From an uncultured Anaerolineaceae bacterium (GTDB taxonomy: Bacteria > Planctomycetota > Phycisphaerae > FEN-1346 > JAACEH01), in assembly GCA_964500225.1 (NCBI GenBank), contig CAZCOA010000002.1, positions 37,022 to 101,021 on the forward strand: a DNA stretch of 64,000 nt, written 5' to 3'. Made by a program: the position numbers and the translations under genes. The notes below the pieces were generated by a model. The model was given only the letters and a program-made list of their open reading frames with translations, did no database searches and was not told the DNA's origin. Below, piece after piece: positions 19,323-45,529 of this stretch (positions are counted from its first letter, which is position 1; each line of letters begins with the position of its first letter).

Positions 19323-22300
19323 GTGGGCAGCAGAAGGAACCATCCGTCACGCGTCATGGCCGTGGTCGCGGCACTGGCGGCCGTGTGGCTGGCCGGCATG
19401 ACGGCGCAAGCGGCGTCGGCGCCCGCCTCGGAGTCTCCGGCGGCCGAGTCTTCTGATGCGCAGCCGGCGGCGCCGACGCCGGGCGCCGGGCAGACCGATG
19501 CCGATGCGCCCGCCGCCGAGAAGCCGTCGGAGCCGGCGGGCCCCCACCCCGACGTATCCGACGAGGACAAAGCCCGGGCCGTGTACCACTACGCCTTGGC
19601 GCGCGAACATATCGCCGCCGAGCGATTCGACGAGGCCATCCACGAACTCGAAGAGGCCGCGCGGCTGGATCCTGGCAGCGCACTGATCCTGCGTGAGCTG
19701 GCCGACGTATATCAGCAGAAGGGCAACGCCGCCAAATCGCAGGAGATTTACGGGCGCATCCTGGCCGCCAACCCGGACGATACCGAGGCGATCTACGGTC
19801 TGGGCAGGTATCACCTGAACCGGAACGATTTCGACAAGGCCGCCGACTGCTTCCGCCAAGTGGTCGAGAAATCGAAGGATGCAGCGTCGGACCGCTTCGT
19901 CGGCCTGTCGCTCTATTTGTTGGGCCGCATCCACGCGTCGCAGAAAAACATGGCCGAGGAGGCGGCCGCATACGACCGCCTCGCCCGCTGGCTGGACCAG
20001 TCGCCGGCGGCAATGCAGCGCGACGCCGAACTGTCGCGCATGGTCGATCCGCAGTTTCTGCACGTGCTGGTCGGTCGCACGGTGCAGCTCTACATGCGTG
20101 TGAAGGAACCGGCGAAGGCGGTTGCCCTGCTGAAGGAAGTGACCGGCGTGCTGGAGAAGCCTGGGCTTGGCCCGTCGGCGGTGCTGTGGCTGCTGAACAA
20201 CCAACAGAACGATCTGGCCCTGGATCTGGCGATGGAGATTCAGCGGCGGCGCACGGACGACGAGTCCGCCTATCATCTGCTGGCCCGGGTGTTCGGCCAG
20301 TCGAACAACCACGAAGGGTTCATCCGGACGTTCCGCGAGTTGGCCGAGCGGCACCCGCATCTGAGCGTAATCCGGATGCTGCTGGGTCAGGAACTGCTGC
20401 GGACCGGCGACGTGGAGGCGGGTGTGGCGATGATCGAGGCGGTGCTCGATGGAACCGACCCGCGTCTGCCCGGCCACGTGGCCGACAGCTCGATGCCCGC
20501 AACGATTCAGGCACTGCTTGCCAAGGGTGACACGGCTGCAGCCCTGAAGTTGGCGCTGGCTGTGCAGCGGCGATGGCCGACGGACGCCGAGAGCTATGAG
20601 CTGCTGAAGCAAGCCTACGACAAGCATAGCGACGACGAGATGTTCCTGAAGAAGTTCCGCGAGTTCCACGAGGCACAGCCCGGGCTGTCTATCGTGACGC
20701 GGCTGCTCGGCGAGAAGCTGATCCAGATGGGTCGCGGCGATGAAGGCGCACAGCTGTTGGAGGAACTGGTTGCGTCATCCGATCCGGTCGTGGTCGGGGC
20801 GGCGCGCACGAACCTGTTGGCCTATTATCAGACCGGCCGGCAGCCGGCGCATGTGCTCAAGCTGTACGCACAGGCTGTGTCGGAGAAGAAAGACTGCGAG
20901 TCGCAATACTGGCGTTTGCGGTCGCGGCTGCTGCGGCTCCAATCGCGCGACGATGCACCGTCAGAGGAGTTTCAACGGTTGCGGCGCGAGGCCGCCGAGC
21001 AGGAGCAGCAAATCGAACAACTCGACGCGCTGGTACGGCAGCTTGCGGATTTCATCGACACGATTGAGGATCGCGGGGCTGTTCTGGCCGATCTGCGCAC
21101 GCTGTTGGCCGACGAGTTGCGGTCGGGGCCTGGACCGGCGTTCGTGCTGGGCATGGTGGCCCAGATGGACGATCCGGCGGCGGCAGCCGAGGATTTCCGG
21201 ACGGTCCTGGAAGTGAACCCTGGGTTCACTCGCGGATATGAGCGCCTGACGGCCGTGCTGATCCGCCTGGACCGGCTGATGGATGCACTGGACGTGTCGC
21301 GCGAGGCGGTGGAGCGGCTGGATAGTCTCGGGTGGAAGAGCGTGTTTTTCCGCCGCATGGCGCGGATCTACGAGATGGTGGATCGGGACGCCGACGCGAT
21401 CATGACGTATCGCACGATTCTGAAGCTGAACCAGGGCGATAACGGGTCGCGGTACAATCTGTCGGGCGTTCTGGCCCGCATCGGTCGCACGGCAGAGGCC
21501 CGTGCGTTGATGGAGGAATCGATCGAAGCCGATCCCGCGTCGTCGCGGCCGTATGTGGAATTGGCGATGTTTCTTCGGGACCAGGGAGACGTGGACGGGG
21601 CCCTGTTGGCCTTGGATCGCGGCCTGGACCAAGTGACGGACGAGGATCAGTTGGGCCTCCTGCTGTACTACCGAGCGATGCTGCTGGAGGACCGCGGCGC
21701 GTCGGACGAGGCAATGGCCGTGATCGACCGCCTGGAGGCCATGGCTGCCTTCGAGCAAGACGCCCGGCAACTTCGGGCCGACGTGCTGATGTCGATGGAA
21801 AAGTACGACGAGGCTCGCAAGCTGATCGACGCGATGGTGGCCTCCAAGCCCGACGACAGCGAGGCGATGCAGTTGCTGGCCACGTGGCACGAGCGTCGAG
21901 GCGAGCCGGAGAAAGCCGAAGAGCTGATGCAGGCCATTCTGAAGAAGCACCCGCGCGACAGCGGAGTCAACAACAACCTCGGCTACATGTGGGCCGACCG
22001 GGGGGTGCGACTGGCCGAGAGTGAGCAGATGATCCGCCTGTCGCTCCAGGAGAATCCCGAATCGTCGGCCACGCTGGACAGCCTTGGCTGGGTGCTCTAC
22101 AAACAGAACCGGCTGGACGAGGCGCTCGTGTACCTTCAGCGAAGCGTGCGCCTGAGCCCGCAGGCTAGTCCCGTGATCTGGGACCACCTGGGCGATGCGC
22201 TGGTGCGGCTGAACCGCCTGGATGAGGCGCGTGCGGCGTACCGGCGTGCGGCCGAGCTGCTTGAGCGGCGACACGTGCGTTTGCAGCGGGACGAGCAGTT

Positions 22301-22412
22301 GATCCGCGAGCTGGTGCCGCGGAAGCTGGAGGCGCTGGATCAGGGGAAACCTGTGCCGACGGCGCCTCTGGGCAGAGACCTATCCGAAAAGGACGGAGCC
22401 ACAGGGCAATAG
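19323..22412 (+). CDS. secreted tetratricopeptide-repeat protein
   Basis: Signal peptide MAVVAALAAVWLAGMTAQAASA, then Ala/Pro/Glu-rich linker, then >20 TPR-like repeats over ~950 aa. Start may be 19356. Confidence 0.7.
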   Translation: MGSRRNHPSRVMAVVAALAAVWLAGMTAQAASAPASESPAAESSDAQPAAPTPGAGQTDADAPAAEKPSEPAGPHPDVSDEDKARAVYHYALAREHIAAERFDEAIHELEEAARLDPGSALILRELADVYQQKGNAAKSQEIYGRILAANPDDTEAIYGLGRYHLNRNDFDKAADCFRQVVEKSKDAASDRFVGLSLYLLGRIHASQKNMAEEAAAYDRLARWLDQSPAAMQRDAELSRMVDPQFLHVLVGRTVQLYMRVKEPAKAVALLKEVTGVLEKPGLGPSAVLWLLNNQQNDLALDLAMEIQRRRTDDESAYHLLARVFGQSNNHEGFIRTFRELAERHPHLSVIRMLLGQELLRTGDVEAGVAMIEAVLDGTDPRLPGHVADSSMPATIQALLAKGDTAAALKLALAVQRRWPTDAESYELLKQAYDKHSDDEMFLKKFREFHEAQPGLSIVTRLLGEKLIQMGRGDEGAQLLEELVASSDPVVVGAARTNLLAYYQTGRQPAHVLKLYAQAVSEKKDCESQYWRLRSRLLRLQSRDDAPSEEFQRLRREAAEQEQQIEQLDALVRQLADFIDTIEDRGAVLADLRTLLADELRSGPGPAFVLGMVAQMDDPAAAAEDFRTVLEVNPGFTRGYERLTAVLIRLDRLMDALDVSREAVERLDSLGWKSVFFRRMARIYEMVDRDADAIMTYRTILKLNQGDNGSRYNLSGVLARIGRTAEARALMEESIEADPASSRPYVELAMFLRDQGDVDGALLALDRGLDQVTDEDQLGLLLYYRAMLLEDRGASDEAMAVIDRLEAMAAFEQDARQLRADVLMSMEKYDEARKLIDAMVASKPDDSEAMQLLATWHERRGEPEKAEELMQAILKKHPRDSGVNNNLGYMWADRGVRLAESEQMIRLSLQENPESSATLDSLGWVLYKQNRLDEALVYLQRSVRLSPQASPVIWDHLGDALVRLNRLDEARAAYRRAAELLERRHVRLQRDEQLIRELVPRKLEALDQGKPVPTAPLGRDLSEKDGATGQ

Positions 22413-22426
22413 TAAGGGGACGACCT

Positions 22427-23179
22427 ATGTCGGGACATTCTCATTGGGCGACCATCAAAAGGAAGAAGGCCGGCGTGGATGCCAAACGCGGGGCGGAGTT
22501 CAGCAAGGTGGCCAAGCTGATCACGGTGGCGGCGCGTCACGGCGGCGGGGATCCGTCGATGAACCTGAGCCTGCGGTACGCGATTGAAAAAGCCCGCTCG
22601 GTCAACATGCCTCGCGACAATATCGAACGGGCCATCAAGAAAGGCACCGGCGAATTGCAAGGGGCCGCCCTGGAAAGCCTGCGCTACGAGGCCTATGCGC
22701 CGGGTGGCGTTGCCATCCTGATCGACGCGCTGAGCGACAACCGCAACCGGACGGCCGGCGAAATCCGGTCGATTCTCGAGAAACACGGCGGCAGCCTGGC
22801 GGCGGTGAACTCCGTGGCGCGGCTGTTCGAGCGCAAGGGGACGATTACCGTGCCGGTGGCCGCCGTGAGCGAGGAGCGTATCATGGAGATCGCCCTGGAG
22901 CACGGGGCGGATGACGTCGTCAGCAAGGACGATGTGCACGAAATCACGTGCAGCCCGGAAGCATTCGAGGGACTGGTCAAGGCCCTGGAGACTGCCGGCA
23001 TTCAGCCCCAGCGGGCGGCGGTCGAGCCGCTACCGAGCATCACGGTCCGGCTGGATGCGGACACTGCGGCGAAGGTGCTGAAGTTGATTGAGCTGCTCGA
23101 TGACCATGACGACGTTTCCGAAGTGTATGCCAACTTTGACGTGAGCGACGAGGTGATGGCGCAGTTGCAGAAAGGGTAA
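22427..23179 (+). CDS. yebC: YebC/PmpR family DNA-binding transcriptional regulator
   Basis: MSGHSHWATIKRKKAGVDAKRGAEFSKVAKLITVAARHGGGDPSMNLSLRYAIEKARSVNMPRDNIERAIKKG is near-invariant YebC N-terminus. Confidence 0.9.
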   Translation: MSGHSHWATIKRKKAGVDAKRGAEFSKVAKLITVAARHGGGDPSMNLSLRYAIEKARSVNMPRDNIERAIKKGTGELQGAALESLRYEAYAPGGVAILIDALSDNRNRTAGEIRSILEKHGGSLAAVNSVARLFERKGTITVPVAAVSEERIMEIALEHGADDVVSKDDVHEITCSPEAFEGLVKALETAGIQPQRAAVEPLPSITVRLDADTAAKVLKLIELLDDHDDVSEVYANFDVSDEVMAQLQKG

Positions 23180-23226
23180 GCCGCCCGCCCTGCCCTACCG
23201 CGCCGAGGAACTCTTTTTGTCCGCGT

Positions 23227-24681
23227 TTGCAGACGATGGGTGACACTATGGCGGATCCCGAAAAAGTCGTCAAATTGCTCAATAAGAAGGCGGTGCAGTC
23301 GGTGTTCCGCCGCATCACGCGGCGGCGCAGCGACGGCGGCTGCACACTGGCCGACTTCTTTCGGGCCTATGCCACGGGCGAGATGAGCCTTGCTCAGCGA
23401 GCGAAGTTCGCCATGCCGATGTGGATCACCGAATACATCCGCAAGCGCACGGGGGCGTCGCGTGACACGCTGCGCCGCCGCGTTTTCGGCCACGGGCCAA
23501 CGGCCCGCGCCCTGGTCAACACGGTCCGCAGCGTGGGTCACTATGGTCTCACGGAGCCGCAGCAGTTCGTCGCGCCGCTCATGGTGGTCTGGAACTTCAC
23601 ACAGGCGTGCAACTTCCGATGCCAACATTGCTACCAGAATGCACATAGGGCCCTGGACGACGAGTTGACGCCCGAGGAGAAGATCGCCGTCGTGGATCGC
23701 CTGGCAGCCATGGACGTGTCGATGCTGGCGTTCTCGGGCGGCGAGCCGCTCATGGGCCGCCATTTCTGGGAAACCGCCCGGCACGCCGCGGACGTGGGAT
23801 TCCACATGTCCGTGGCCACCAACGGATCGCTCTGCACGCCCGAGAACGTGCAACGGCTGGTGGATTGCGGTATCGGCTACACTGAGATTTCGCTCGATTC
23901 GATCGATCCGGCCAAGCACGACCACTTCCGCGGCGGCAAAGGTTATTGGGAGGCCGCGGTCCGTGGCATCGACAACTGTGTGGCCCACCCCCACATGAAG
24001 ACGGGCGTGGCCACCACCGTGACGAAGCTGAATATCGACGAGCTGGAGCAGATCATCCAGTGGGCGATCGACCGCGGGGTTGATACGTTCTACGCCTTCA
24101 ACTTCATTCCGACAGGCCGCGGCAAAGATATTGTCGATATGGATCTGTCGCCGAGCGAGCGCGAGCGGATGTTGGCGATTCTCCAGAAGACGCTGCTGGA
24201 GGACAAGATCGCCGTGATGAGTTCGGCGACGCAGTACGGCCGCGCGTGCATCGAGCTGGGCGACGCCGAGTCGCCCATCAACACGGGACATTACGGCTAC
24301 TCGTCGGGCAAGAAAACGCGGATTCTGGCCAAGTACGTCGGCGGTTGCGGCGCGGGGCGATGCTACTGCGCGATCCAGCCCAACGGCAAGGTCACGCCCT
24401 GCGTGTTCATGCCCATCGAGATCGGCGACATCCGGCAGGACGACTTCGAGCAGATGTGGCTCAACGATCCGCTGCTGAAGGTGCTGCGCGACCGCGAGGA
24501 CCGCACCGGCCACTGCAAGGTTTGCCAATACAAGCACTATTGCGGCGGCTGCCGGGCCCGTAGTTACGGCTACTTCGGCGATGTCCGCAAGAGCGACCCC
24601 GGCTGCAAGTTCAACGAGGCCGAGTGGCAGGAAGTGCTCGCGGCATCGGCTCGTGCGGCGGATCAGGCCGCGGGGCAGTAG
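23227..24681 (+). CDS. radical SAM/SPASM-domain protein (NirJ/AhbC/AhbD/PqqE-like maturase clade) with ~110-aa N-terminal extension
   Basis: CNFRCQHC (CX3CX2C) preceded by VVWNFTQA. Glycine-rich SAM motif SGGEPL. C-terminal SPASM cysteines (CGAGRCYC...GKVTPC...CKVCQYKHYCGGCRARS...DPGC). Confidence 0.75.
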   Translation: MQTMGDTMADPEKVVKLLNKKAVQSVFRRITRRRSDGGCTLADFFRAYATGEMSLAQRAKFAMPMWITEYIRKRTGASRDTLRRRVFGHGPTARALVNTVRSVGHYGLTEPQQFVAPLMVVWNFTQACNFRCQHCYQNAHRALDDELTPEEKIAVVDRLAAMDVSMLAFSGGEPLMGRHFWETARHAADVGFHMSVATNGSLCTPENVQRLVDCGIGYTEISLDSIDPAKHDHFRGGKGYWEAAVRGIDNCVAHPHMKTGVATTVTKLNIDELEQIIQWAIDRGVDTFYAFNFIPTGRGKDIVDMDLSPSERERMLAILQKTLLEDKIAVMSSATQYGRACIELGDAESPINTGHYGYSSGKKTRILAKYVGGCGAGRCYCAIQPNGKVTPCVFMPIEIGDIRQDDFEQMWLNDPLLKVLRDREDRTGHCKVCQYKHYCGGCRARSYGYFGDVRKSDPGCKFNEAEWQEVLAASARAADQAAGQ

Positions 24682-24780
24682 CCACAGGCCCATCCGGCGC
24701 CGCCGGGCAGTTCGGCAGCTCTCCTCTGGACAGCGAACAAGCGAACATCCGTTGTGGGGACGACTCGCGAGCCGCCCCCC

Positions 24781-25959
24781 CTACCCTTTGGCGTGGTGGT
24801 TCAGGGCGGCCTGGGCGTACATAGCGGTCCCCTGCCACAGGACGTCCTCGTCGATGCGGAAGTGGGGATTGTGGTGGGCCGCGGTGATCCCCTTGGCGGG
24901 ATTGCCAACGCCGAGAAAGATCATTGCGCCCGGCACGCGCTGGAGAACGTAGCAGAAGTCCTCGCCGCCAAACTTCTTCTCGACGGGCGTGAGGCGCCCC
25001 GGGCCGAAGAGTTGCTCCGCGGTCGCCTGCAAGTCGGCCGCCACGGCGGCATCGTTGACCACGGTGCCGTACCCGTGGGAAAACTGAAGGTCAATCGTGA
25101 CACCGCAGGCGATTTCGATGCCGTTAACGATGTCGCGGATGAATTTGATGACGCGATTCCTCGTGCGTTCGCAATGGGTCCGCAGCGTGCCGGCCACCTC
25201 GACGGTATCGGGGATGACGTTATAGGCGTCGCCGCCGTGGATCATGCACATGCTGAGGACGCCGACATCGTGCGGTTTGATGCGGCGGCTCATGATGGTC
25301 TGAAGGCTGAGGATCAACTGGGCAGCCGCGACCACGGGGTCAATACACAATTCGGGAGTGGCGGCATGTCCGCCGCGACCGTTGATGCGCAGGGTGATGG
25401 CGTCAGCCTCGGCCATGACGGGCCCGGCCTGGATCCCCCAGAGGCCGGCCTCGTGAGCGGTGAAGACATGAATGGCCAGGGCTCGGTCCACGCCGTCGAG
25501 GACGCCTTCTTCGACCATGGCGGCCGCGCCGCCCGGGGGCTGCTCCTCGGACGGCTGGAACATGAGCCGCACCGACGCCTTCAACTCGCTGCGATGGCGT
25601 GCCAGAAGCCGCGCCGCCCCCAGCAACATGGCCACATGGGCGTCGTGGCCGCACAGGTGCGAGCAGCCGGGGATCTGCGACGTGAAACTTTCACCCGAGG
25701 CTTCCTGGACGGGCAGCGCGTCCATGTCGGCCCGAAGCAGGATGCGTCCGGCGGCGCCGGGCACGTCGAGGTCGCCGACCACGCCGGTCTTGCCGACGTT
25801 GCGTCGCACGGCAAACCCCAGCCGCTCGAGTTCATCGGCCACCACGCCCGCCGTCCGATGCTCCTGGAACCCCAGTTCGGGGTGCTGGTGCAGGTCGCGG
25901 CGCCAGGCGACGATCTGTTCCTGCAATGCGTACGCTTCCTGGGCTATGGATGCACTCAC
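24781..25959 (-). CDS. M20D-family amidohydrolase (N-acyl-L-amino acid / hippurate hydrolase-like)
   Basis: AWRRDLHQHPELGFQE opening, metal ligands (CGHDAH, ...EE...) typical of peptidase M20D. Start chosen at GTG 25959 (VSASIAQ...), giving GTGA overlap with the upstream gene's stop. The ORF could extend to 25992. Confidence 0.75.
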   Translation of the reverse strand: MSASIAQEAYALQEQIVAWRRDLHQHPELGFQEHRTAGVVADELERLGFAVRRNVGKTGVVGDLDVPGAAGRILLRADMDALPVQEASGESFTSQIPGCSHLCGHDAHVAMLLGAARLLARHRSELKASVRLMFQPSEEQPPGGAAAMVEEGVLDGVDRALAIHVFTAHEAGLWGIQAGPVMAEADAITLRINGRGGHAATPELCIDPVVAAAQLILSLQTIMSRRIKPHDVGVLSMCMIHGGDAYNVIPDTVEVAGTLRTHCERTRNRVIKFIRDIVNGIEIACGVTIDLQFSHGYGTVVNDAAVAADLQATAEQLFGPGRLTPVEKKFGGEDFCYVLQRVPGAMIFLGVGNPAKGITAAHHNPHFRIDEDVLWQGTAMYAQAALNHHAKG

Positions 25960-26741
25960 GTTCCGCCCTTTCTCCTGCCTCGCGCGAGCCACTCGGGATC
26001 GGCGAACCGGTCGCGTCGAATTCGCTCGGCGTCCCGTCGTTCCTCGTCCGACAGTTCGGACTGTTCGAAGACAACGTCCAGCGTTTCGGCGAACCGCTCG
26101 GCCAGGGGCCGCGCGAGTTCGTCGAACGTCACTGGGCGTCCGAGCAATTGGGCCAGTCCGAGGGTGGCTTCCTGCCGGTTGTCGTCGAGCATGATCGACC
26201 CGTGCTGGAGAACGCCTCCGTCGGCGCGTCGTTGAGCGCTGCCGGCCAGCTTGAGCGACCGCGCGATTATATCGGTGGAGCCGGCGCGGGCGAAGCAGAA
26301 AAACGGGCCCCGCTGGGCGCGCTCGCCGCGCTGCTCGCCGCGCACTTCCACCGTACCCCCCAGGTCGGCCACGGCCGCCACGATCGCGCGGTTGACCAGG
26401 TCGTAGAGCATCGGGCCGTCCAGCAGGTCTGCCGGCACGGCCACCGAGTAGGTGAGCTCCTGATCGTGGAGAATGGCGCCGCCGCCGGTAGCGCGGCGGA
26501 CCACGGGCCAGCGGTCACGGACGTCGGGCGGTATCTCGTCGAGAGACTGGAAGTACCCCAGCGACAGGGTCGGCCGATTCCAGGCGTAAAGACGCAGAGC
26601 AGGCCGCCCCCCACGGGCCACCTGCTCGAGCAAGACCTGGTCCACCGCCATGTTCCAGTCGCCGGGCGAAGGTGGATGAATAATCAATCGCCACGGGCCG
26701 TTCACGGGGTCACCTTCGGCATCCGGTCCATCACTTGGCAT
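25956..26741 (-). CDS. lipoate-protein ligase / octanoyltransferase family protein (BPL/LPL catalytic domain only)
   Basis: Internal ATG 26741 (MPSDG...). RRATGGGAILHD motif of LplA/LipM/LipB catalytic domain. 261 aa with no LplA C-terminal domain. Overlaps the gcvPB stop by ~11 nt. Confidence 0.7.
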   Translation of the reverse strand: MPSDGPDAEGDPVNGPWRLIIHPPSPGDWNMAVDQVLLEQVARGGRPALRLYAWNRPTLSLGYFQSLDEIPPDVRDRWPVVRRATGGGAILHDQELTYSVAVPADLLDGPMLYDLVNRAIVAAVADLGGTVEVRGEQRGERAQRGPFFCFARAGSTDIIARSLKLAGSAQRRADGGVLQHGSIMLDDNRQEATLGLAQLLGRPVTFDELARPLAERFAETLDVVFEQSELSDEERRDAERIRRDRFADPEWLARGRRKGGT

Positions 26742-28191
26742 CGTCCCACATGTAGCGCAGGTCGAGGTCCTTGGCGGCACGGACTTCGTCGGCACGGCTG
26801 ACGGACGTCGCGTGCGGCGCGTTGTGGAGTTTGTCGGCGTCGGCCTTGGCCTCGGCGACAATGTCGGCCAGCACAGAGGCAAACCCATCGAGGGTCCGTC
26901 GCCGCTCGGTCTCCGTGGGCTCGATCATCATGGCCTCGTCCACGATCAGCGGGAAGTAGACCGTCGGCGGGTGGATGCCGTAATCGATGAGTCGTTTGGC
27001 CACGTCGAGCGTCCGAACGCCGTAAGCCTTCTTCAGCGGCGTGCCCGAGAGGACGAACTCGTGCATGCAGTCGCCGGCATAGGGAGTGGCGAATTCCTTG
27101 GGGCACTTGCTCTGGAGGTAGCGTGCATTGAGAACGGCATTCTCGGCGACCTCCCGGACGCCCTTGGCGCCAAGACGACGGAGATAGCAGTACGCCCTCA
27201 GGAGGACGCCCGTCTGGCCGAGGAAAGCACGCACGCGGCCGATGCTCTTGGGGCGTCCCGTATCCACCAGGTGGAACACGCCGGTCTCGCTGCGTTCGAT
27301 CGTCGGCACGGGCAGGAACGGTACGAGGTCGGCCGCCACGGCGATCGGTCCGGCGCCGGGTCCGCCGCCGCCGTGAGGCGTCGATAGCGTCTTGTGCGTA
27401 TTGATGTGCAGTGCATCGGCGCCCCAGTCGCCCGGGCGAGAGATACCAAGAATCGCATTGAGGTTGGCCCCGTCGATGTACAGCTTCGCGCCGACGCCGT
27501 GCAGAAGCTTTGCCACTTCGCCGACATCGGTCTCGAACAGGCCGAGGGTGTTCGGGCACGTCAGCATCATCCCGGCGACGGACGGGTCGAGCTTGCTTCG
27601 CAGGTCGTCCAGGTCGATGAGGCCGCGCTCATTCGAGCGAACCTGAACGATCTTGAATCCCGCGATGGCCGCACTGGCGGGATTGGTGCCGTGGGCGCTG
27701 TCGGGGACGAGGATCGTGGTCCGCCGCTCGCCGCGATCGCGGAACCAGGCAGCAAACATGAGCATGGCGGTCAGTTCGCCGTGGGCGCCGGCAGCCGGCT
27801 GGAGGCTCACGCCCGGCAATCCGGTGATCTCCTTGAGCATCTCCTGGAGCTGCCACAGGATCGCCAGCGTGCCCTGGCAGTCTTCGTCGAACTGGTACGG
27901 GTGAAGGCCGGTGAATTCGGGCATCGACGACAACTGTTCGTTGACCCGCGGGTTGTATTTCATCGTACACGACCCGAGGGGATAGAAGTTGGTGTCAACC
28001 GAGAAGTTTTCGCGGCTCAGCAACGTCAGGTGCCGCACGACGCTGCGCTCGGCCACCTCGGGCAATCGCGGCGGCTTGCGACGGAGCAGATTCTCCGGCA
28101 GGACCGGTCCGGTGTGGGGCACGTCCGAGGGGGGAAACTCCACGGCTCGCTGGCCGGGTTGCGACTTCTCGAAGATCAACGGTTCCGGCAT
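26731..28191 (-). CDS. gcvPB: glycine dehydrogenase (aminomethyl-transferring) subunit 2
   Basis: 486 aa. MPEPLIFEKSQPGQRAVEFP... N-terminus and PLP-lysine region typical of GcvPB. Confidence 0.9.
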   Translation of the reverse strand: MPEPLIFEKSQPGQRAVEFPPSDVPHTGPVLPENLLRRKPPRLPEVAERSVVRHLTLLSRENFSVDTNFYPLGSCTMKYNPRVNEQLSSMPEFTGLHPYQFDEDCQGTLAILWQLQEMLKEITGLPGVSLQPAAGAHGELTAMLMFAAWFRDRGERRTTILVPDSAHGTNPASAAIAGFKIVQVRSNERGLIDLDDLRSKLDPSVAGMMLTCPNTLGLFETDVGEVAKLLHGVGAKLYIDGANLNAILGISRPGDWGADALHINTHKTLSTPHGGGGPGAGPIAVAADLVPFLPVPTIERSETGVFHLVDTGRPKSIGRVRAFLGQTGVLLRAYCYLRRLGAKGVREVAENAVLNARYLQSKCPKEFATPYAGDCMHEFVLSGTPLKKAYGVRTLDVAKRLIDYGIHPPTVYFPLIVDEAMMIEPTETERRRTLDGFASVLADIVAEAKADADKLHNAPHATSVSRADEVRAAKDLDLRYMWDDAK

Positions 28192-28214
28192 GGCGGACTA
28201 TTCCTTTCGGCCGC

Positions 28215-29549
28215 CTACTGGCTGACGGCGGCAATGAACGCATCGAGTTCGGCGCGGGTGCGTTTTTCGGTGACGGCCACGAGGAGTCGGTTGCTCATCT
28301 GCGGATAGAACCGTGCCAAGGGCACGCCGCCCAGGATGCCGCGCTTGGCGACGCGGGCCAACACGCGGTCGGCGTCCTGGTCGCATTCGAGGACAAACTC
28401 CTTGAAGAACGGGGCCGAGTAATGGATTCGGAAGCCCTTGATTTGCGAGAATTTCTCGGCCAGGTAATGCGCCTTGGCCGCACAGAGACCGGCCACCTCC
28501 TTCAGGCCGGCCGCGCCTACGAGCGACAGGTACAGCATCGCCCGGACGGTCATCAGGCCCTCATTCGTGCAGATGTTGCTGGTGGCCTTCTCGCGTCGGA
28601 TGTGCTGTTCGCGCGTCTGAAGGGTCAGACAGAAGCACGGCTTGCCGTGGTGGTCCACCGTGCGTCCGACGAGCCGCCCGGGAATCTGACGCACGAACTT
28701 CTTGCGCGTGGCCAGGAACCCCAGGGACGGACCGCCCATATTCATCGGCAGCCCCAGCGACTGCCCCTCGCCGACGGCGATGTCGGCCTCGTACTCGCCC
28801 GGCGACGCCAGCAGCCCCAGGCTGATCGGATCCACGCTCGCGACCAGCAGCGCACCGACCGCGTGGGCCAGTTCGCTCAGTTTCTCCATCGGCTCGATCA
28901 CACCGAAGAAGTTGGGCGTCTGGGTGATCACGCACGCCGTATCGTCGCCCAAAAGACCCGCGATGGTTTCCACGTCCGTCATTCCGTGTTTCCAGGGCAC
29001 GGTCACGGGCTCCAGGTCCGTGTTGATCAGGTACGTCTTCAGACACGCCAACGACTCCGGGTGCAGCGTCTGGGAGACGATGATTTTGCGTCGCCGAGTA
29101 ATGGCGGCGGCCATCAGGGCCGCCTCGGCCACGGCACTGGCGCCGTCGTACAGCGATGCGTTGGCCACTTCCATGCCCGTCAACTCGGCAATCATCGTCT
29201 GGTATTCCCAGAGGATCTGGAGTGTGCCCTGGCTGGCTTCGGCTTGGTATGGGGTGTAGCTCGTCAGGAACTCGCCGCGCGACGCTAATGCGTCAATCGC
29301 CGACGGAATGAAATGGTCGTAAATGCCGCCGCCCAGGAAACTCACCATGTCGCCGGCCGGACGATTCCGCTTGGCCAGGGCGCGCACGTGGCGGACCAAC
29401 TCCATTTCGGTCTCGGCCGGAGGCAGTTTCAGGTCGCCCTTGAGCCGCAGCGCCTCGGGGATGCTGTGGAACAGTTCGCTGTGCCGGGTCAGGCCCAGTT
29501 CAGCGAGCATTTCTTTCTGTACGTCGGGAGGATTGCCCAGGTAAGCCAC
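28215..29549 (-). CDS. gcvPA: glycine dehydrogenase (aminomethyl-transferring) subunit 1
   Basis: Start chosen at GTG 29549 (VAYLGNPPDVQKEMLAELGL...) with AAAGGA 8 nt upstream. Homology to GcvPA over the full length. Confidence 0.85.
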   Translation of the reverse strand: MAYLGNPPDVQKEMLAELGLTRHSELFHSIPEALRLKGDLKLPPAETEMELVRHVRALAKRNRPAGDMVSFLGGGIYDHFIPSAIDALASRGEFLTSYTPYQAEASQGTLQILWEYQTMIAELTGMEVANASLYDGASAVAEAALMAAAITRRRKIIVSQTLHPESLACLKTYLINTDLEPVTVPWKHGMTDVETIAGLLGDDTACVITQTPNFFGVIEPMEKLSELAHAVGALLVASVDPISLGLLASPGEYEADIAVGEGQSLGLPMNMGGPSLGFLATRKKFVRQIPGRLVGRTVDHHGKPCFCLTLQTREQHIRREKATSNICTNEGLMTVRAMLYLSLVGAAGLKEVAGLCAAKAHYLAEKFSQIKGFRIHYSAPFFKEFVLECDQDADRVLARVAKRGILGGVPLARFYPQMSNRLLVAVTEKRTRAELDAFIAAVSQ

Positions 29550-29571
29550 GACAGGATCCTTTCTGGATGCG

Positions 29572-29955
29572 TCAATGATCGGCAAGGGCCTTGTCGTACT
29601 CGGCGGCATCCATCAGATCGTCCAGCTCGGACGGATTTGACATGCGGACCTTGAGGAGCCACCCTGCCCCGAAGGCGTCGGACGAAATGATCGACACGTC
29701 GTCCAGCACGGCCTGGTTGACCTCGATCACTTCGCCGCTAACGGGCGAATTCAGCTCGCTGACCGCCTTGACGCTCTCGATTTCGCCGAACGACTGGCCC
29801 GCGCTGACGGTGTCGCCCACCGACGGCAGGTCGATATAGACCAGATCCGTGAGCTGCTCGGCGGCGTGCTGCGTGATGCCCACCACAGCCGTCGGCCCTT
29901 CCGCGCGGCACCACTCGTGCGATTCGGTGTACTTGCAGCCCTTCGGATTGCTCAT
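29572..29955 (-). CDS. gcvH: glycine cleavage system H protein
   Basis: Internal ATG 29955. 127 aa with lipoyl-lysine motif ESVKAVSELNSPVSGEV. Confidence 0.9.
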   Translation of the reverse strand: MSNPKGCKYTESHEWCRAEGPTAVVGITQHAAEQLTDLVYIDLPSVGDTVSAGQSFGEIESVKAVSELNSPVSGEVIEVNQAVLDDVSIISSDAFGAGWLLKVRMSNPSELDDLMDAAEYDKALADH

Positions 29956-29968
29956 GATGCGTCCCTTT

Positions 29969-31051
29969 CTATGCCCGTAGCAACAACTGCCCCAGCTCGA
30001 CCACCGTGGCCTGCTCTCTGCGGCCGCGGATATCCACGGAGACGGTACGACCGGCTGTGGCCGACGACGCCTCCAGCATCGCCTGGGCGATCGGCGCCTC
30101 ACGCAGCGGCGACCATGTCCCGCTGGTGACGCAACCCGCCTCTACGTCGCCATCATAAACTGGCATATTCTCACGTGCGATGCGTCGGCCTGTCAAGACA
30201 AGACCCATCCGCTTGCGGGAAATTCCCATGTCGTACCGCCGCTGCATCTCGTCCCGGCCTACGAACTGCTTATCCAGGTTGATCGAGTAGCCTAGGCCCA
30301 GTTCCCACGGGCTGGACGACTCGCGCAGCTCGTGTCCGTAGAGGGGCAGCGCGGCCTCGTTCCGCAGGGAATCCCGGGATCCGAGGCCGCACGCCGCCGC
30401 CCCCGCCTCACGCAACGCCGCCCACAGCGACGCAACTGCTTCGGGGGAACCGTAAATCTCGTACCCGTCGCCGCCCGTGTAACCGCTACGAGAACCGCAC
30501 AGCACGTCGCCGTTCCGCGGCGCACTCCACAGATGATATCGGCGCCGCGTCTGGGCGTCGGCCTCGGGCCAGACACGATCCAGCAGGGCGGCCGATGCCG
30601 GGCCTTGAATCGCCATCATAGCCGTCTCGAACGTAATGTCCTGAAGCAGGTGGCCGTAGCCAAGACGTTCGATGTGGGCGACCACGCGCTCGCGGTTCGC
30701 GGCGTTGACGATCAGTTGCCAGGCATCGCGCCGCCGCGCCACCATCACATCGTCCAGGATGTTGCCCTGCGCATCGACGACGAAACTGTAGCGAATGGCC
30801 GACACCGTCATCGTGCCGGTTCGCCGGGTGAGCAGCCGCTCGACGGCCTCGTCGGCCCCGTGACCGCGAAGCAGCAGGCGACCCATGTGGGAGATGTCGA
30901 ACAGCCCCGCGTGCCGCCGGACGGCCAAATGCTCGGCCACAATCCCCTCGAACTGGACCGGCATGCGCCAGCCGGCGAAATCCACCCACGTCGGCCCATC
31001 CTTGGCGGCCACATCGGCCAATGGCGTCGTTCTGGCAGTATCCTGCAGCAT
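29969..31051 (-). CDS. gcvT: glycine cleavage system aminomethyltransferase T
   Basis: 360 aa. ...GLFDISHMGRL... and full-length GcvT similarity. GGAGGA 5 nt upstream of the ATG. Confidence 0.9.
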   Translation of the reverse strand: MLQDTARTTPLADVAAKDGPTWVDFAGWRMPVQFEGIVAEHLAVRRHAGLFDISHMGRLLLRGHGADEAVERLLTRRTGTMTVSAIRYSFVVDAQGNILDDVMVARRRDAWQLIVNAANRERVVAHIERLGYGHLLQDITFETAMMAIQGPASAALLDRVWPEADAQTRRRYHLWSAPRNGDVLCGSRSGYTGGDGYEIYGSPEAVASLWAALREAGAAACGLGSRDSLRNEAALPLYGHELRESSSPWELGLGYSINLDKQFVGRDEMQRRYDMGISRKRMGLVLTGRRIARENMPVYDGDVEAGCVTSGTWSPLREAPIAQAMLEASSATAGRTVSVDIRGRREQATVVELGQLLLRA

Positions 31052-38851: not shown

Positions 38852-39790
38852 TCATCGGCAGGCGGCCAGGATGTCGGCGCCGCCGGCGGCAAGCACCTCG
38901 TCGCCGAGGCGTCGGGCCAGGTCGAGCATCCGGTCGGCCGGGCCGCGAGCTTCGCGCCGAATGAGATGCGAACCGTCGCACGAGGCCACCAGCCCCGTCA
39001 GGACCAGCGTGTCGTCACCGTCGAGACGCCCCCAGGCCGCAACGGGCGCATGGCACCCTCCGCCGAGATGTCGCAGGAACTCCCGCTCGGCCGTTACGGC
39101 GATTCGCGAGGGGCGGTGATCCAGAGCTGCCAGGAGATCGGCCAAATCCACATCCTGCCGACGAATCTGGAGGCCGAGGGCCCCCTGCCCTGGAGCCGGC
39201 AACATACGGTCCGGACCCAGGATTTCCATGGCCGGCGTCAGCAACCCCAGCCGCACGAGCCCTGCCCGCGCGAGCACGACGGCATCGTACAGGCCGTCAC
39301 GCACCTTCTCCAGCCGCGTGTCCACGTTGCCGCGAATGTCGGCCAGGTCCAGGTCGCCGCGCAGGGCGGCCACTTGTGCCTTGCGGCGCGGGCTGCTGGT
39401 GCCGACTCTCGCCCCCGGCGGCAACTCGGCCAGAGTCCGTCCGTCGCGCGTGGCCAGGACATCGCGGGAATCCTCGCGCTGCGGCACGGCGTCCGCCAGG
39501 CACAGGCCCTCGCTCGGCTGCGTCGGCATGTCCTTGAGGCTATGGACGGCCAGGTCGATGCGGCCATCGAGGAGTGCCAGTTCCAGTTCGCGTGTGAAGA
39601 CGCCCGTGCCGCCCATGGCGCGGATGCCGGTGGCCGTGTCGCGGTCGCCGCGCGTGCGAATCGTCTCGATGCGGCACCGGACGTGCGGATGGGCGCAGAG
39701 CAGGGAGTGCTGGACCGCCAGCGCCTGGGCCATGGCCAGATCGCTGCCTCGCGTGCCGATGACGATGTCCCGCTGCGTCCGACCGCTCAC
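38852..39790 (-). CDS. hemC: hydroxymethylbilane synthase (porphobilinogen deaminase)
   Basis: Start at GTG 39790 (VSGRTQRDIVIGTRGSDLAMAQ...) with GAGGAACC SD (listed ORF has an 86-aa artefactual extension). Dipyrromethane cofactor Cys region LGGGCHAPVAAW. Confidence 0.85.
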   Translation of the reverse strand: MSGRTQRDIVIGTRGSDLAMAQALAVQHSLLCAHPHVRCRIETIRTRGDRDTATGIRAMGGTGVFTRELELALLDGRIDLAVHSLKDMPTQPSEGLCLADAVPQREDSRDVLATRDGRTLAELPPGARVGTSSPRRKAQVAALRGDLDLADIRGNVDTRLEKVRDGLYDAVVLARAGLVRLGLLTPAMEILGPDRMLPAPGQGALGLQIRRQDVDLADLLAALDHRPSRIAVTAEREFLRHLGGGCHAPVAAWGRLDGDDTLVLTGLVASCDGSHLIRREARGPADRMLDLARRLGDEVLAAGGADILAACR

Positions 39791-39874
39791 AGGTTCCTCG
39801 CTCGTCCGCCCCGGCGACCATAGTGTGGGTCCCCGGACCCACACGGATGCGGGGCGCCACGGCGTGTTTGCGAC

Positions 39875-39903
39875 AGTATAGACCGGCCGAATCGGTTTGA
39901 CAA
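39875..39903 (-). promoter_or_regulatory. hemC promoter (minus strand)
   Basis: Minus-strand TTGTCA(39903-39898)-N17-TATACT(39880-39875). Confidence 0.45.
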
Positions 39904-39925
39904 CGTCCGCATGCGTTCCTAGACT
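39897..39925 (+). promoter_or_regulatory. promoter for small protein gene/serS (plus strand), back-to-back with the hemC promoter
   Basis: TTGACA(39897-39902)-N17-TAGACT(39920-39925). Its -35 hexamer overlaps the complementary -35 of the hemC promoter (palindromic TTGACAA). Confidence 0.45.
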
Positions 39926-40069
39926 CGCCGCCGCAGGGGCCGGACGCCGGAACCGGGGCGACGAGAATCCGTGCAACGGCCGCTGTGGGGCGATGACAAC
40001 GCCTGAATTTCCGGGTACACTGTGGCGGCGCAGGTAGTGATTGGACAATCATCGAAGGAGGAGGACGCC

Positions 40070-44096: not shown

Positions 44097-45266
44097 TCAG
44101 ACCTGGTCGCGGACCTTCAGGAACTCGTCGATCATGGCCATGAAGTTGTCGTACGGCGTGCCGACGGCCACGCTGTGGCTCGTGCCGAAAATGAAACCGC
44201 TGCCCGGCGCGCCGACGCGCACCGCCCGGCGTACGGCAGTCCGGACCTCGTCGGTCGTGCCGCTCTGGAGCACCTCCAACGGCATGCCGCCCCAGAGGCA
44301 GAGCCGGTCGCCGTGGCTCGCCTTGAGCTGGTCGAGATGCACCCCCGCCGTGGCCTGGAGGCTCTGGTAGCAATCGAATCCGGCGGCGACGAAGTCGTCC
44401 AGCAGAGGCAGATTGTTGCCGCAGGCGTGCTTCAGGACGAACTGCCCACGGGCGTGCAGACATTCGGTCCGTTCCTTGTACGCCGGGAAGCAGAACTCGT
44501 GCCACATGGCCGGTGAGATCATCGGTCCGGCCTTGTAGGCAAAGTCGGCCCCCCAGAGGGTGCCGTCCTGCCCGTCGCGGACCGCCCAGGCGTCGGCGGC
44601 GTTGGCGTCGCGCGTGGCGCGGGCGATGGCCGCGCGGACCACGTCCGGCTGGTCGATGAACATCATCAGGCCGCGCTCCATGCCGCCGACGAGCGTCCAT
44701 CCGGCTTCCCCGCCGCTCGGCCCACAAAGAAACCGCTGGCCGCGAAACTCTTCGATCAGGGCGTCCACGACCTCGTACACGCTGTCGTCCGGACGAGTTG
44801 GCGGCGGCGCGTCGTCGAACTGGGCCGCCGTGAACACCGCGTTACGAGCCACGGGATCGTCCACGCATGTGATGTCGTTGGTCGTGGGCGAATACTTGTA
44901 CACGCGGCCCTGGCGGTCCTGCCAGGTATCGGGTGCAATCTTTTGGGGCGGGTCGGGCTCATAGTCCCGCGGCGGCAGAAGCCCTCCGGCCATGGCCGCC
45001 ACGTTCAGGATGTCGAAACAGTCCATGCGGCGGTAGAATTCGATGAAGTCCTCGCGCCAGCTCTGGGCCACTTCGTCGCGACGGCCTTCCCAAAGGGCAA
45101 GGGTCGTTCCGGCCTTGTTCCGCAGCAATGTTTCGTGCCCCAGCACGGCGGCCACCGTGTCGTAGTCCACGGCAAATTCACCGTAGGGAATACGGTCCAC
45201 CGGCTCGTGCCTCAGGGCGGCGATGATACGTTGGCGACTGTTCACGAAGTGTTCCTTGCTTTGCAT
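44097..45266 (-). CDS. uroporphyrinogen decarboxylase (URO-D)-like family protein
   Basis: Internal ATG 45266 (MQSKEHFVNSRQRIIAALRHEPVDRIPYGEF...), the standard opening of URO-D/MtaA-like TIM-barrel proteins. Confidence 0.65.
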   Translation of the reverse strand: MQSKEHFVNSRQRIIAALRHEPVDRIPYGEFAVDYDTVAAVLGHETLLRNKAGTTLALWEGRRDEVAQSWREDFIEFYRRMDCFDILNVAAMAGGLLPPRDYEPDPPQKIAPDTWQDRQGRVYKYSPTTNDITCVDDPVARNAVFTAAQFDDAPPPTRPDDSVYEVVDALIEEFRGQRFLCGPSGGEAGWTLVGGMERGLMMFIDQPDVVRAAIARATRDANAADAWAVRDGQDGTLWGADFAYKAGPMISPAMWHEFCFPAYKERTECLHARGQFVLKHACGNNLPLLDDFVAAGFDCYQSLQATAGVHLDQLKASHGDRLCLWGGMPLEVLQSGTTDEVRTAVRRAVRVGAPGSGFIFGTSHSVAVGTPYDNFMAMIDEFLKVRDQV

Positions 45267-45529
45267 GCGCGAGAGCCGGCTGCCGCAGGGCGCGGCCGCA
45301 ACGGCGCGGACATTGTACAGCTGCCGCCGCACCGCGGACAAGCGGCTCTCCCAAGGAATGACGAGGCCACCTGACAGATACGCAGCACACAGCCGTAGTC
45401 AACACAAGATGATATTATTCGCAATATCCAATGGCATGGCGTATTTTCAAATACACCGCTTCCTTTGTCCTGCCACGGCAAAAAGTGTGCCCTGCGTTTG
45501 ACAAATACAGACGCGAACGACCTTTCCCA

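What the first reader, a model, noticed from the sequence alone, without database searches (positions are those of the whole stretch)
23227..24681. Orphan radical SAM/SPASM enzyme with long N-terminal extension closing the nusA-infB-rbfA-hisG-yebC gene string
The protein has a canonical CX3CX2C (CNFRCQHC), preceded by VVWNFTQA as in the NirJ/AhbC/AhbD-like SPASM clade. A twin-cluster SPASM C-terminus (CGGCRARS...DPGC) follows. It also carries about 110 residues N-terminal to the radical SAM core (basic, predicted helical), which is unusual for this clade.

No heme-d1 or alternative-heme gene, no PQQ or mycofactocin gene, and no small precursor-peptide ORF lies within 3 kb on either side. The enzyme sits at the 3' end of a 12-kb co-directional housekeeping string, immediately after yebC. 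Substrate (peptide, cofactor or tetrapyrrole) is unassigned.
Basis: partly seen in the sequence, partly recalled or inferred. Interest (0 to 1): 0.5.

Follow-up and report, generated by a model that had tools for sequence, protein, structure and literature searches.

The report
Bacterial homologue of lipid cross-linking enzyme Gms
This gene is a Phycisphaerae (Planctomycetota) copy of GMGT synthase (Gms/Hbs), a radical SAM enzyme shown in archaea in 2024 to weld the two hydrocarbon chains of membrane-spanning lipids into an H shape; it is not an orphan enzyme of unknown substrate, though no bacterial copy has been tested in the laboratory.

Summary
A 477-484 aa ORF (23227/23248-24681, +) encodes CX3CX2C, a GGE motif, a twin-cluster SPASM domain and a ~105-residue helical N-terminal domain. 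That domain is conserved in several hundred relatives, so it is not a start-calling error.

No curated NCBIfam family claims the protein: AhbD 245 bits against a cutoff of 500, NirJ2 250/500, TIGR04053 235/395. AhbD-like core plus a ~100-aa N-terminal lipid-pocket domain (COG4001) is how two 2024 papers define GMGT synthase. Those papers already list bacterial homologues in Planctomycetes, Acidobacteria and Aerophobetes.

Evidence obtained here:
- The bacterial and archaeal N-domains are homologous (hhalign 99.5%, E 3e-23).
- The whole protein is 43% identical (381 bits) to an archaeal member.
- The N-domain occurs only in front of this radical SAM core.
- It is all-helical with no RRE fold, and no precursor ORF lies nearby.
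- In some relatives, including two Phycisphaerae, the gene adjoins a second radical SAM/SPASM gene, a B12-radical SAM gene and plsX-fabH.

The yebC linkage is confined to close relatives. The likely role is C-C cross-linking of membrane-spanning lipid chains (brGMGT-type lipids). This is a new member of a known kind, of modest interest.

The parts
23248..24681 (+). Coding sequence of the Gms-like radical SAM/SPASM protein, 477 aa from ATG 23248. Alternative starts are TTG 23227 (484 aa) and ATG 23236 (481 aa).
   Evidence: ORF list and sequence. All homologues begin at MADPEK. Residue numbers in this report use the 484-aa numbering.
23248..23571 (+). N-terminal all-helical domain (residues 8-115), the hallmark of the Gms family ('COG4001' in the literature). 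It is the predicted lipid-binding cap over the active site.
23572..24216 (+). Radical SAM core (residues 116-330). It contains the CX3CX2C cluster motif C128/C132/C135 (nt 23608-23631) and the SAM-binding FSGGEP motif.
   Evidence: Pfam PF04055 at 123-280, E 2.7e-26. Invariant C128, C132, C135, G171, G172, E173.
24217..24342 (+). Bridging region (residues 331-372) containing invariant C341, the likely fourth ligand of auxiliary cluster I. The model shows a helix followed by short strands.
   Evidence: Invariant columns. Secondary structure of the model. The architecture matches the description of MoGms in PMC11186832.
24343..24615 (+). SPASM domain (residues 373-463) with seven invariant Cys: C374-X12-G387-X4-C392, then C430-X2-C433-X5-C439-X2-C442, then C460. 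These would hold two auxiliary [4Fe-4S] clusters.
   Evidence: Pfam PF13186 at 374-434. Invariant Cys list.
22427..23179 (+). Upstream neighbour yebC/TACO1-family gene. It is co-directional with a 68-bp gap to ATG 23248, and no terminator-like site lies between them. It is not part of the system.
   Evidence: Pfam. Scan. The pairing is not conserved beyond close relatives.
24781..25992 (-). Convergent downstream neighbour: an M20 amidohydrolase, the last gene of a gcvT-H-PA-PB-lplA-like operon. It is not part of the system.
   Evidence: Pfam and NCBIfam. Same layout in L003.

Best explanation
The ORF encodes a bacterial member of the GMGT synthase family (Gms, also called H-GDGT bridge synthase, Hbs).

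Shown here: the protein has three sets of cluster ligands (one radical SAM cluster and two fully Cys-ligated auxiliary clusters) and a SAM-binding GGE motif. It also has the family-specific N-terminal helical domain, which is homologous to that of the archaeal members.

Inferred by analogy with the characterised archaeal enzymes: the N-domain caps the radical SAM barrel and forms a hydrophobic pocket that admits the hydrocarbon chains of a membrane-spanning lipid. Reductive cleavage of SAM gives 5'-deoxyadenosyl radical, which abstracts hydrogen from an unactivated sp3 carbon in one chain. A second SAM activates the other chain, possibly with an auxiliary cluster holding the first radical as proposed for Tes, and a C(sp3)-C(sp3) bond is formed between the two chains.

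In this anaerobic Phycisphaerae bacterium the substrate would be a fatty-acid-derived membrane-spanning lipid (brGDGT or an iso-diabolic-acid-type lipid). The product would be an H-shaped, brGMGT-type lipid. The position after yebC is incidental.
For: Architecture: CX3CX2C, GGE, eight further invariant Cys, and a conserved N-domain.

Not a curated heme, NirJ or RiPP family: the best NCBIfam scores are about half their cutoffs. Archaeal family members show the same sub-threshold pattern.

Literature definition: Gms is an AhbD homologue (36% identity to M. barkeri AhbD) plus a ~100-aa N-terminal COG4001 domain forming a hydrophobic pocket. Activity was shown by heterologous expression (PMC11214058) and in vitro (PMC11186832). 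Of 193 bacterial homologues, 71 are from Planctomycetes, 31 from Acidobacteria and others from Aerophobetes; they cluster with tes or mss, and 90% of the genomes carry tes and/or mss.

Tested here:
- Bacterial and archaeal N-domain profiles give hhalign 99.5%, E 3.3e-23.
- The window protein against archaeal P0319 is 43% identical over 415 aa, 381 bits. P0319 lies in an archaeal lipid and mevalonate neighbourhood.
- From an archaeal query, archaeal and bacterial hits interleave at 46-54% identity.
- In an NJ tree the window protein falls in a Planctomycetota clade (89-100% support) that groups with Acidobacteriota and Thermodesulfobacteriota (81%). It is as close to archaea (40-42%) as to other bacterial groups (42-47%).
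- The taxonomic spread across GTDB matches the paper's list.
- The N-domain is found only at the N-terminus of such proteins.

Context in relatives: a partner rSAM/SPASM gene, with or without a B12-rSAM gene, is adjacent in 8/80 and 5/80 loci. These include Phycisphaerae L033 (59% identical; partner directly upstream) and L032 (B12-rSAM directly downstream). plsX-fabH lies a few genes away in five loci.

The AF2 model (pLDDT 87.8) reproduces the published four-part architecture.
Against: No bacterial Gms homologue has been assayed; the 2026 review reports archaeal data only.

I could not obtain the sequences of the experimentally tested enzymes (T. guaymasensis, T. celer, P. furiosus, M. okinawensis). 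The link to them therefore runs through uncharacterised archaeal homologues and the papers' own surveys.

The window contains no tes, mss, ger, grs or gmm gene, and the rest of the genome could not be searched. 72 of the 80 GTDB loci likewise show no lipid partner within 10 kb.

The partner genes in relatives show no detectable similarity to solved Tes (7TOL), and their identity as Mss is unverified.

A genuine hemC lies 14 kb away, so the organism does make tetrapyrroles.
Confidence: 0.65

Rival explanations
1. Same family, different chemistry. The bacterial Planctomycetota/Acidobacteriota clade uses the Gms scaffold on another lipid substrate or for another C-C coupling. Examples are tail-to-tail coupling that creates the membrane-spanning lipid itself, or cross-linking of diester or diether lipids, rather than bridging a preformed tetraether.
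For: Most loci, including the window, have no tes- or mss-like partner within 10 kb. The bacterial substrates (fatty-acid-based chains) differ chemically from biphytanyl chains. The bacterial clades are only 40-42% identical to archaeal members. Mss is absent, and Tes rare, in iso-diabolic-acid-producing Acidobacteria (PMC13159169).
Against: 90% of Gms-bearing bacterial genomes also carry tes and/or mss, which suggests Gms acts after them. Where clustering exists, a separate partner rSAM/SPASM is present. Only 5 bacterial homologues come from isolates, so cultured iso-diabolic-acid producers mostly lack the gene.
Confidence: 0.2
2. An AhbD-type anaerobic heme b synthase, or another tetrapyrrole propionate-modifying enzyme as in NirJ, whose N-terminal domain serves substrate delivery.
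For: The closest curated HMMs are NirJ2, AhbD and TIGR04053. Genuine hemC lies at 38852-40048 in the same window. The organism is probably an anaerobe that would need an O2-independent terminal heme step.
Against: Scores are about half the equivalog cutoffs. No ahbA/B/C, nirD-L, hemE/Y/H/Q or chdC gene is in the window, and the URO-D-fold ORF is not hemE. The N-domain is the feature that separates experimentally proven Gms from AhbD, and it is homologous between this protein and archaeal members. In relatives the gene clusters with lipid genes, not tetrapyrrole genes.
Confidence: 0.08
3. A RiPP or other peptide-modifying radical SAM/SPASM maturase, with the N-terminal domain acting as a peptide-recognition element.
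For: SPASM enzymes are often peptide maturases. Foldseek finds PqqE, SkfB and SuiB as the best solved structures for the whole model.
Confidence: 0.02

Closest known systems
GMGT synthase Gms / H-GDGT bridge synthase Hbs (T. guaymasensis WP_062369926.1, P. furiosus AAL80771.1, M. okinawensis METOK_RS04425; PMC11214058, PMC11186832)
   Same: The four-part architecture is the same: a ~100-aa helical N-domain, a radical SAM core, a bridging region and a twin-cluster SPASM domain. The sub-threshold AhbD-like HMM profile is the same. The N-domain is homologous to that of archaeal family members (99.5%), and the whole protein is 40-43% identical to them. It belongs to the Planctomycetes group already listed among the bacterial homologues.
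   Different: The host is bacterial. The presumed substrate is a fatty-acid-derived (branched) membrane-spanning lipid rather than isoprenoid GDGT-0. No tes, mss or gmm neighbour is present in this window. Activity has not been tested in any bacterium.
AhbD heme b synthase (TIGR04545; M. barkeri Mbar_A1458)
   Same: It has the closest characterised catalytic core, with the same CX3CX2C and two auxiliary clusters. The match is 245 bits over the whole AhbD profile.
   Different: The score is half the 500-bit cutoff. AhbD lacks the N-terminal domain. No Ahb pathway genes are nearby. The substrate class is predicted to be lipid, not tetrapyrrole.
Tetraether synthase Tes / GDGT-MAS (PDB 7TOL, 7TOM) and bacterial Mss
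   Same: These are radical SAM enzymes with auxiliary clusters that form C(sp3)-C(sp3) bonds between lipid chains. They have an alpha-helical cap over the barrel, and a mechanistic analogy has been proposed.
   Different: Core similarity is weak only (E 3.8e-8; Foldseek TMq 0.38). The cap sits on the opposite side according to PMC11186832. Tes and Mss join chain termini, whereas Gms bridges mid-chain.
RRE-containing SPASM maturases (SuiB, PqqE/PqqD, MftC)
   Same: Radical SAM plus SPASM fold. These are the best solved-structure matches for the whole model.
   Different: No RRE fold, no precursor peptide, and no conserved RiPP neighbourhood.

Membership tests
GMGT synthase (Gms/Hbs) | Radical SAM core with CX3CX2C and a GGE SAM-binding motif | tested here: met
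   C128/C132/C135 and G171-G172-E173 are invariant in the family alignment. Pfam PF04055 E 2.7e-26.
GMGT synthase (Gms/Hbs) | SPASM domain with 7-8 Cys for two auxiliary [4Fe-4S] clusters | tested here: met
   Eight invariant Cys: 341, 374, 392, 430, 433, 439, 442, 460. Pfam PF13186.
GMGT synthase (Gms/Hbs) | ~100-aa N-terminal helical domain (COG4001) absent from AhbD | tested here: met
   Conserved N-domain. hhalign against the N-domains of archaeal homologues: 99.5%, E 3.3e-23, 102/109 columns. AF2 gives 6-7 helices, as published. The COG4001 model itself was not available, so the equivalence is inferred through the archaeal family members.
GMGT synthase (Gms/Hbs) | BLASTP E<=1e-80 to T. 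guaymasensis Gms and length >=400 aa (criterion of PMC11214058) | not testable with these tools
   Length is 477 aa. The Tg-Gms sequence could not be retrieved. As a proxy, the match to archaeal P0319 is 381 bits, E 4e-133.
GMGT synthase (Gms/Hbs) | Falls in the Gms clade, separate from the AhbD outgroup | tested here: inconclusive
   It forms one compact cluster with archaeal N-domain-bearing proteins and fails the AhbD equivalog cutoff. No true AhbD and no tested Gms sequence was in my tree.
GMGT synthase (Gms/Hbs) | Genome also encodes a membrane-spanning lipid synthase (tes or mss), often clustered with gms | tested here: inconclusive
Relatives, including Phycisphaerae L033, have an adjacent partner rSAM/SPASM gene whose Mss identity is unverified and which is not Tes-like.
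GMGT synthase (Gms/Hbs) | Catalyses chain-to-chain C-C bridging of a tetraether lipid | not testable with these tools
   This needs expression and lipid LC-MS.
AhbD heme b synthase (TIGR04545) | Score at or above the curated equivalog cutoff (500 bits) | tested here: not met
   244.7 bits.
AhbD heme b synthase (TIGR04545) | Ahb pathway context (ahbA/B, ahbC) or a coproheme pathway | tested here: not met
   Only hemC, 14 kb away. The URO-D-fold ORF is not hemE. This covers the window only.
NirJ / NirJ1 / NirJ2 (TIGR04051/54/55) and TIGR04053 | Score at or above the curated cutoffs (515/650/500/395 bits) | tested here: not met
   195/199/250/235 bits.
RiPP radical SAM/SPASM maturases | RRE (winged-helix, PqqD-like) domain | tested here: not met
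RiPP radical SAM/SPASM maturases | Adjacent precursor peptide gene | tested here: not met
   No independent short ORF in the flanks, and the overlapping ORFs are not conserved. No conserved neighbour in 89 loci.
Tes / GDGT-MAS | Full-length similarity to solved GDGT-MAS (7TOL) | tested here: not met
   Core-only match: E 3.8e-8 over residues 120-297; Foldseek TMq 0.38.

The most novel reading that the evidence does not exclude
In Planctomycetota and Acidobacteriota, where the gene usually stands alone, the Gms-like enzyme might not bridge a preformed tetraether. It might itself perform the missing C-C coupling that creates bacterial membrane-spanning or otherwise cross-linked fatty-acid lipids, that is, a third route besides Mss and Tes. 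That would bear directly on the unresolved origin of brGDGT and brGMGT palaeoclimate biomarkers.
Probability: 0.1. Interest if true: 0.7.

Novelty: new member of a known kind. Interest (0 to 1): 0.3.

Why it matters
H-shaped branched tetraethers (brGMGTs) are used as temperature and oxygen proxies in peat, lake and marine sediment records, but no bacterial producer or bacterial enzyme has been demonstrated. Surveys point to Planctomycetota Gms homologues as candidate sources: in the Black Sea their abundance tracks brGMGT-1a (PMC11868695). This window offers one more full-length candidate, from an anaerobic Phycisphaerae lineage, that could be expressed and tested. For annotation, it shows that 'AhbD/NirJ-like radical SAM' proteins carrying this N-domain should not be read as heme or RiPP enzymes. 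No NCBIfam or Pfam model yet captures the family or its N-domain.

Tried and rejected
1. AhbD, NirJ, mycofactocin, PQQ or RiPP equivalog membership: all NCBIfam scores are far below cutoff.
2. Mis-called start: rejected, because the N-domain is conserved.
3. Functional linkage to yebC or the translation genes: rejected, because synteny holds only in close relatives and no neighbour family occurs in more than 7 of 89 loci.
4. Link to the convergent lipoate-ligase/glycine-cleavage operon (LipS1/S2-type lipoyl synthase idea): no supporting HMM hit, and the pairing is not conserved outside close relatives.
5. RRE in residues 1-110: rejected.
6. Precursor peptides in the flanks: rejected.
7. Partner genes as Tes: no 7TOL similarity.
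8. The URO-D-fold ORF as hemE: rejected.

Led nowhere:
- Retrieving the experimentally tested Gms sequences. The hit lists gave no Thermococcales names, the paper's supplements are not held, and the AFDB50 library was unavailable.
- A pocket calculation, because model coordinates are not exposed.
- The first bootstrap run timed out and was redone.

Full report
OBSERVATION. The ORF at 23227-24681 (+) is real. It carries VVWNFTQA-CNFRCQHC (C128/C132/C135), an FSGGEP SAM-binding motif and a C-terminal Cys-rich region. Pfam recognises these as Radical_SAM (123-280) and SPASM (374-434). Seventeen full-length homologues at 48-84% identity all align from 'MADPEK'. The most likely start is therefore ATG 23248 (477 aa), not TTG 23227. 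The ~105 residues before the core are conserved (invariant Y48, T99, G104, G107, P111, Q112). The alignment also shows eight invariant Cys beyond the radical SAM triad (341, 374, 392, 430, 433, 439, 442, 460), enough for two fully Cys-ligated auxiliary clusters.

CLASSIFICATION AGAINST CURATED FAMILIES. NCBIfam gives NirJ2 250 bits (cutoff 500), AhbD 245 (500), TIGR04053 235 (395), NirJ1 199 (650), NirJ 195 (515), AhbC 175 (650) and the mycofactocin maturase 141 (265). No equivalog is met, and none of the models covers residues 1-115. The other refutation condition, a confident AhbD/NirJ hit, is therefore also not met.

FAMILY AND DISTRIBUTION. More than 100 clusters of full-length homologues exist in metagenomes. 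They come from Phycisphaerae and other Planctomycetota, Acidobacteriota, Thermodesulfobacteriota, Atribacterota, Aerophobetes, Latescibacteria, Clostridia/Bacillota and others, and all match from residue ~7-18 onward. The best match is a Phycisphaerae MAG at 95% identity (L010), which indicates the window's origin.

GENOMIC CONTEXT. The nusA-infB-(DUF503)-rbfA-(glycosylase-like)-hisG-(1029-aa TPR)-yebC-rSAM layout, with the convergent M20/lplA-like/gcvP operon, recurs only around the 84%-identical homologue P0002 (two contigs, L003 and L004). More distant members have unrelated neighbours. I clustered crude ORF calls from 89 loci, and no neighbour family occurred in more than 7 loci. The recurrent exceptions are informative:
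- In Aerophobetes, Clostridia and uncultured genomes the order is TetR, a second rSAM/SPASM of 500-540 aa, sometimes a B12-binding rSAM, the family gene, Nudix, coaD, acyl-CoA synthetase, plsX, fabH.
- Thermodesulfobacteriota have the family gene followed by an 85-aa ORF or a B12-rSAM, and then a 511-aa rSAM/SPASM.
- A tblastn count gives a partner rSAM/SPASM gene in 8 of 80 GTDB loci and a B12-rSAM within 10 kb in 5 of 80.
- These include two Phycisphaerae: L033 (59% identical to the window protein) has the partner directly upstream, and L032 has a B12-rSAM directly downstream.
- The window itself has no other CxxxCxxC ORF.

IDENTIFICATION. A literature search on AhbD together with these phyla led to Garcia et al. 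2024 (PMC11214058) and Li et al. 2024 (PMC11186832). Both identify GMGT synthase (Gms, or Hbs in the preprint) as an AhbD homologue (36% identity to M. barkeri AhbD). It has a ~100-aa N-terminal extension (COG4001; six helices) that forms a hydrophobic pocket connected to the active site. A radical SAM domain, a bridging region and a SPASM domain with two fully Cys-ligated auxiliary clusters follow. [quoted passage not shown] It was shown by heterologous expression of the T. guaymasensis, T. celer, P. furiosus and M. okinawensis genes, and in vitro for the M. okinawensis enzyme. Garcia et al. list 193 bacterial homologues. Acidobacteria (31) and Planctomycetes (71) mostly carry tes, and candidate phyla such as Aerophobetes mostly carry mss. 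gms clusters with tes or mss, and a B12-rSAM methylase (Gmm) clusters with gms in archaea. This agrees with the architecture, the taxonomic spread and the occasional gene clusters that I had found before reading these papers.

DIRECT TESTS OF MEMBERSHIP.
(a) A profile of 17 bacterial N-domains was searched exhaustively against 1.84 billion cluster representatives. It hit only 70 (37 at E<=1e-10). All were fragments or ~420-590-aa proteins with the domain at the N-terminus. One hit belongs to an Aigarchaeota cluster.
(b) Searching from that archaeal protein retrieved 470-506-aa homologues from Halobacteriota, Methanoperedens, Bathyarchaeia and Geothermarchaeales. These lineages are named as major Gms holders in the paper.
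(c) The window protein is 43% identical over 415 aa (381 bits, E 4e-133) to archaeal P0319. The P0319 gene follows inositol-phosphate genes and lies near the archaeal mevalonate trio and radA.
(d) Profile-profile comparison of the bacterial and archaeal N-domains gives 99.5% probability, E 3.3e-23, over 102 of 109 columns. The shared linker motif is RRGLxN..S[IV][AG].YG[VL]T.PQ.
(e) The archaeal proteins show the same sub-threshold AhbD/NirJ2/TIGR04053 scores.
(f) From an archaeal query, bacterial (Clostridia, Aerophobetes) and archaeal hits interleave at 46-54% identity.
(g) In an NJ tree with 100 bootstraps, the window protein lies in a Planctomycetota clade (89-100%) that joins Acidobacteriota and Thermodesulfobacteriota (81%). 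An archaeal clade (90%) is no more distant (40-42% identity) than the other bacterial groups (42-47%). The partner rSAMs are far outside at 22-23%.
(h) The AF2 model (pLDDT 87.8, pTM 0.87) shows a seven-helix N-domain, the barrel, a bridging segment and SPASM.

Not achieved: a comparison with the experimentally tested sequences themselves, with the COG4001 model, or with true AhbD in a tree.

RIVALS.
- Heme or tetrapyrrole enzyme. HMM scores are half the cutoffs. The window holds a genuine hemC 14 kb away (314 bits) but no Ahb, coproheme or d1 genes, and the URO-D-fold ORF at 44097-45341 is not hemE. This rival cannot be excluded for bacteria without an assay, but nothing specific supports it.
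- Same fold, different lipid chemistry. This remains open because most bacterial loci are solitary and no bacterial enzyme has been tested.

MECHANISM (inferred by analogy, not shown here). The N-domain cap admits lipid chains. The radical SAM cluster cleaves SAM, and 5'-dA radical abstracts H from an sp3 carbon. A second SAM turnover activates the second chain, and an auxiliary cluster may hold the first radical as proposed for Tes. C-C bond formation then gives an H-shaped lipid. In this Phycisphaerae the expected substrate is a branched fatty-acid-derived membrane-spanning lipid, and the product is brGMGT-like. Gms homologues are reported only from anaerobes and oxygen-deficient settings. 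Planctomycetota Gms abundance tracks brGMGT-1a in the Black Sea.

VERDICT. The interpretation of an orphan enzyme with unassigned substrate is superseded: this is a further member of the published Gms/Hbs family, in the Planctomycetes group that its discoverers already catalogued. The position after yebC carries no functional meaning. Confidence that it belongs to the family is about 0.9. Confidence that it bridges membrane-spanning lipid chains in this organism is about 0.65. Interest is modest (0.3). The value lies in correct annotation and in providing a testable bacterial candidate for the unknown source of brGMGT biomarkers.

Noticed in passing
window 19323-22412 (+): A 1029-aa TPR-repeat protein with an Ala/Pro-rich, signal-like N-terminus sits between hisG and yebC. 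It is conserved (985 aa) in the syntenic relative L003.
   Followed up: partly
window 38852-40048 (-) and 44097-45341 (-): Genuine hemC (TIGR00212, 314 bits) whose HMM match starts only at residue 95, so it has either a ~94-aa N-extension or an early start call. Nearby is a 414-aa URO-D-fold protein that is not hemE and has only weak MtaA/CmuA-type hits (36-43 bits).
   Followed up: partly
window 24781-31051 (-): The glycine-cleavage operon (gcvT, presumably gcvH, gcvPA, gcvPB) ends with a divergent LplA-like lipoate ligase (81 bits against the LplAB cutoff of 550) and an M20 amidohydrolase. It is convergent with the gms gene, and the layout is the same in L003.
   Followed up: partly
L065, L070, L078, L084, L089 (and L064): Conserved cluster: TetR, a 500-540-aa rSAM/SPASM partner, sometimes a B12-rSAM, gms, Nudix, coaD, ADP-forming acyl-CoA synthetase, plsX, fabH. 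The partner is not Tes-like (no 7TOL hit) and is probably Mss, but this is unverified.
   Followed up: partly
L033:58-1149 and L032:11456-12823: Two Phycisphaerae MAGs have, directly next to their gms homologue, the partner-type rSAM/SPASM gene (49% identical to the Clostridia partner) and a B12-binding rSAM gene respectively. The window's own lineage lacks both nearby.
   Followed up: partly
L090:3623-7380: In an archaeal genome the gms homologue P0319 overlaps by 29 nt the end of an inositol-1-phosphate synthase plus NTP-transferase/CDP-alcohol phosphatidyltransferase pair. This suggests co-transcription with inositol-phosphate lipid or solute genes. Its N-domain appears ~25 aa shorter, so its start may be mis-called.
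   Followed up: no
L002:11596-11853: An 85-aa ORF with no family hit lies between gms and the partner rSAM in a Thermodesulfobacteriota MAG. In the related L005 a B12-rSAM occupies that position instead.
   Followed up: no
L042 vs L048: The gms sequences labelled 'Acidobacteriia AH_259_A11_L15' and 'Candidatus Xenobia' are almost identical in the tree. One taxonomic label or bin assignment is probably wrong.
   Followed up: no
window 23002-24693 (-): A 563-aa antisense ORF spans the whole gms gene. This is a typical high-GC artefact, not a gene.
   Followed up: yes
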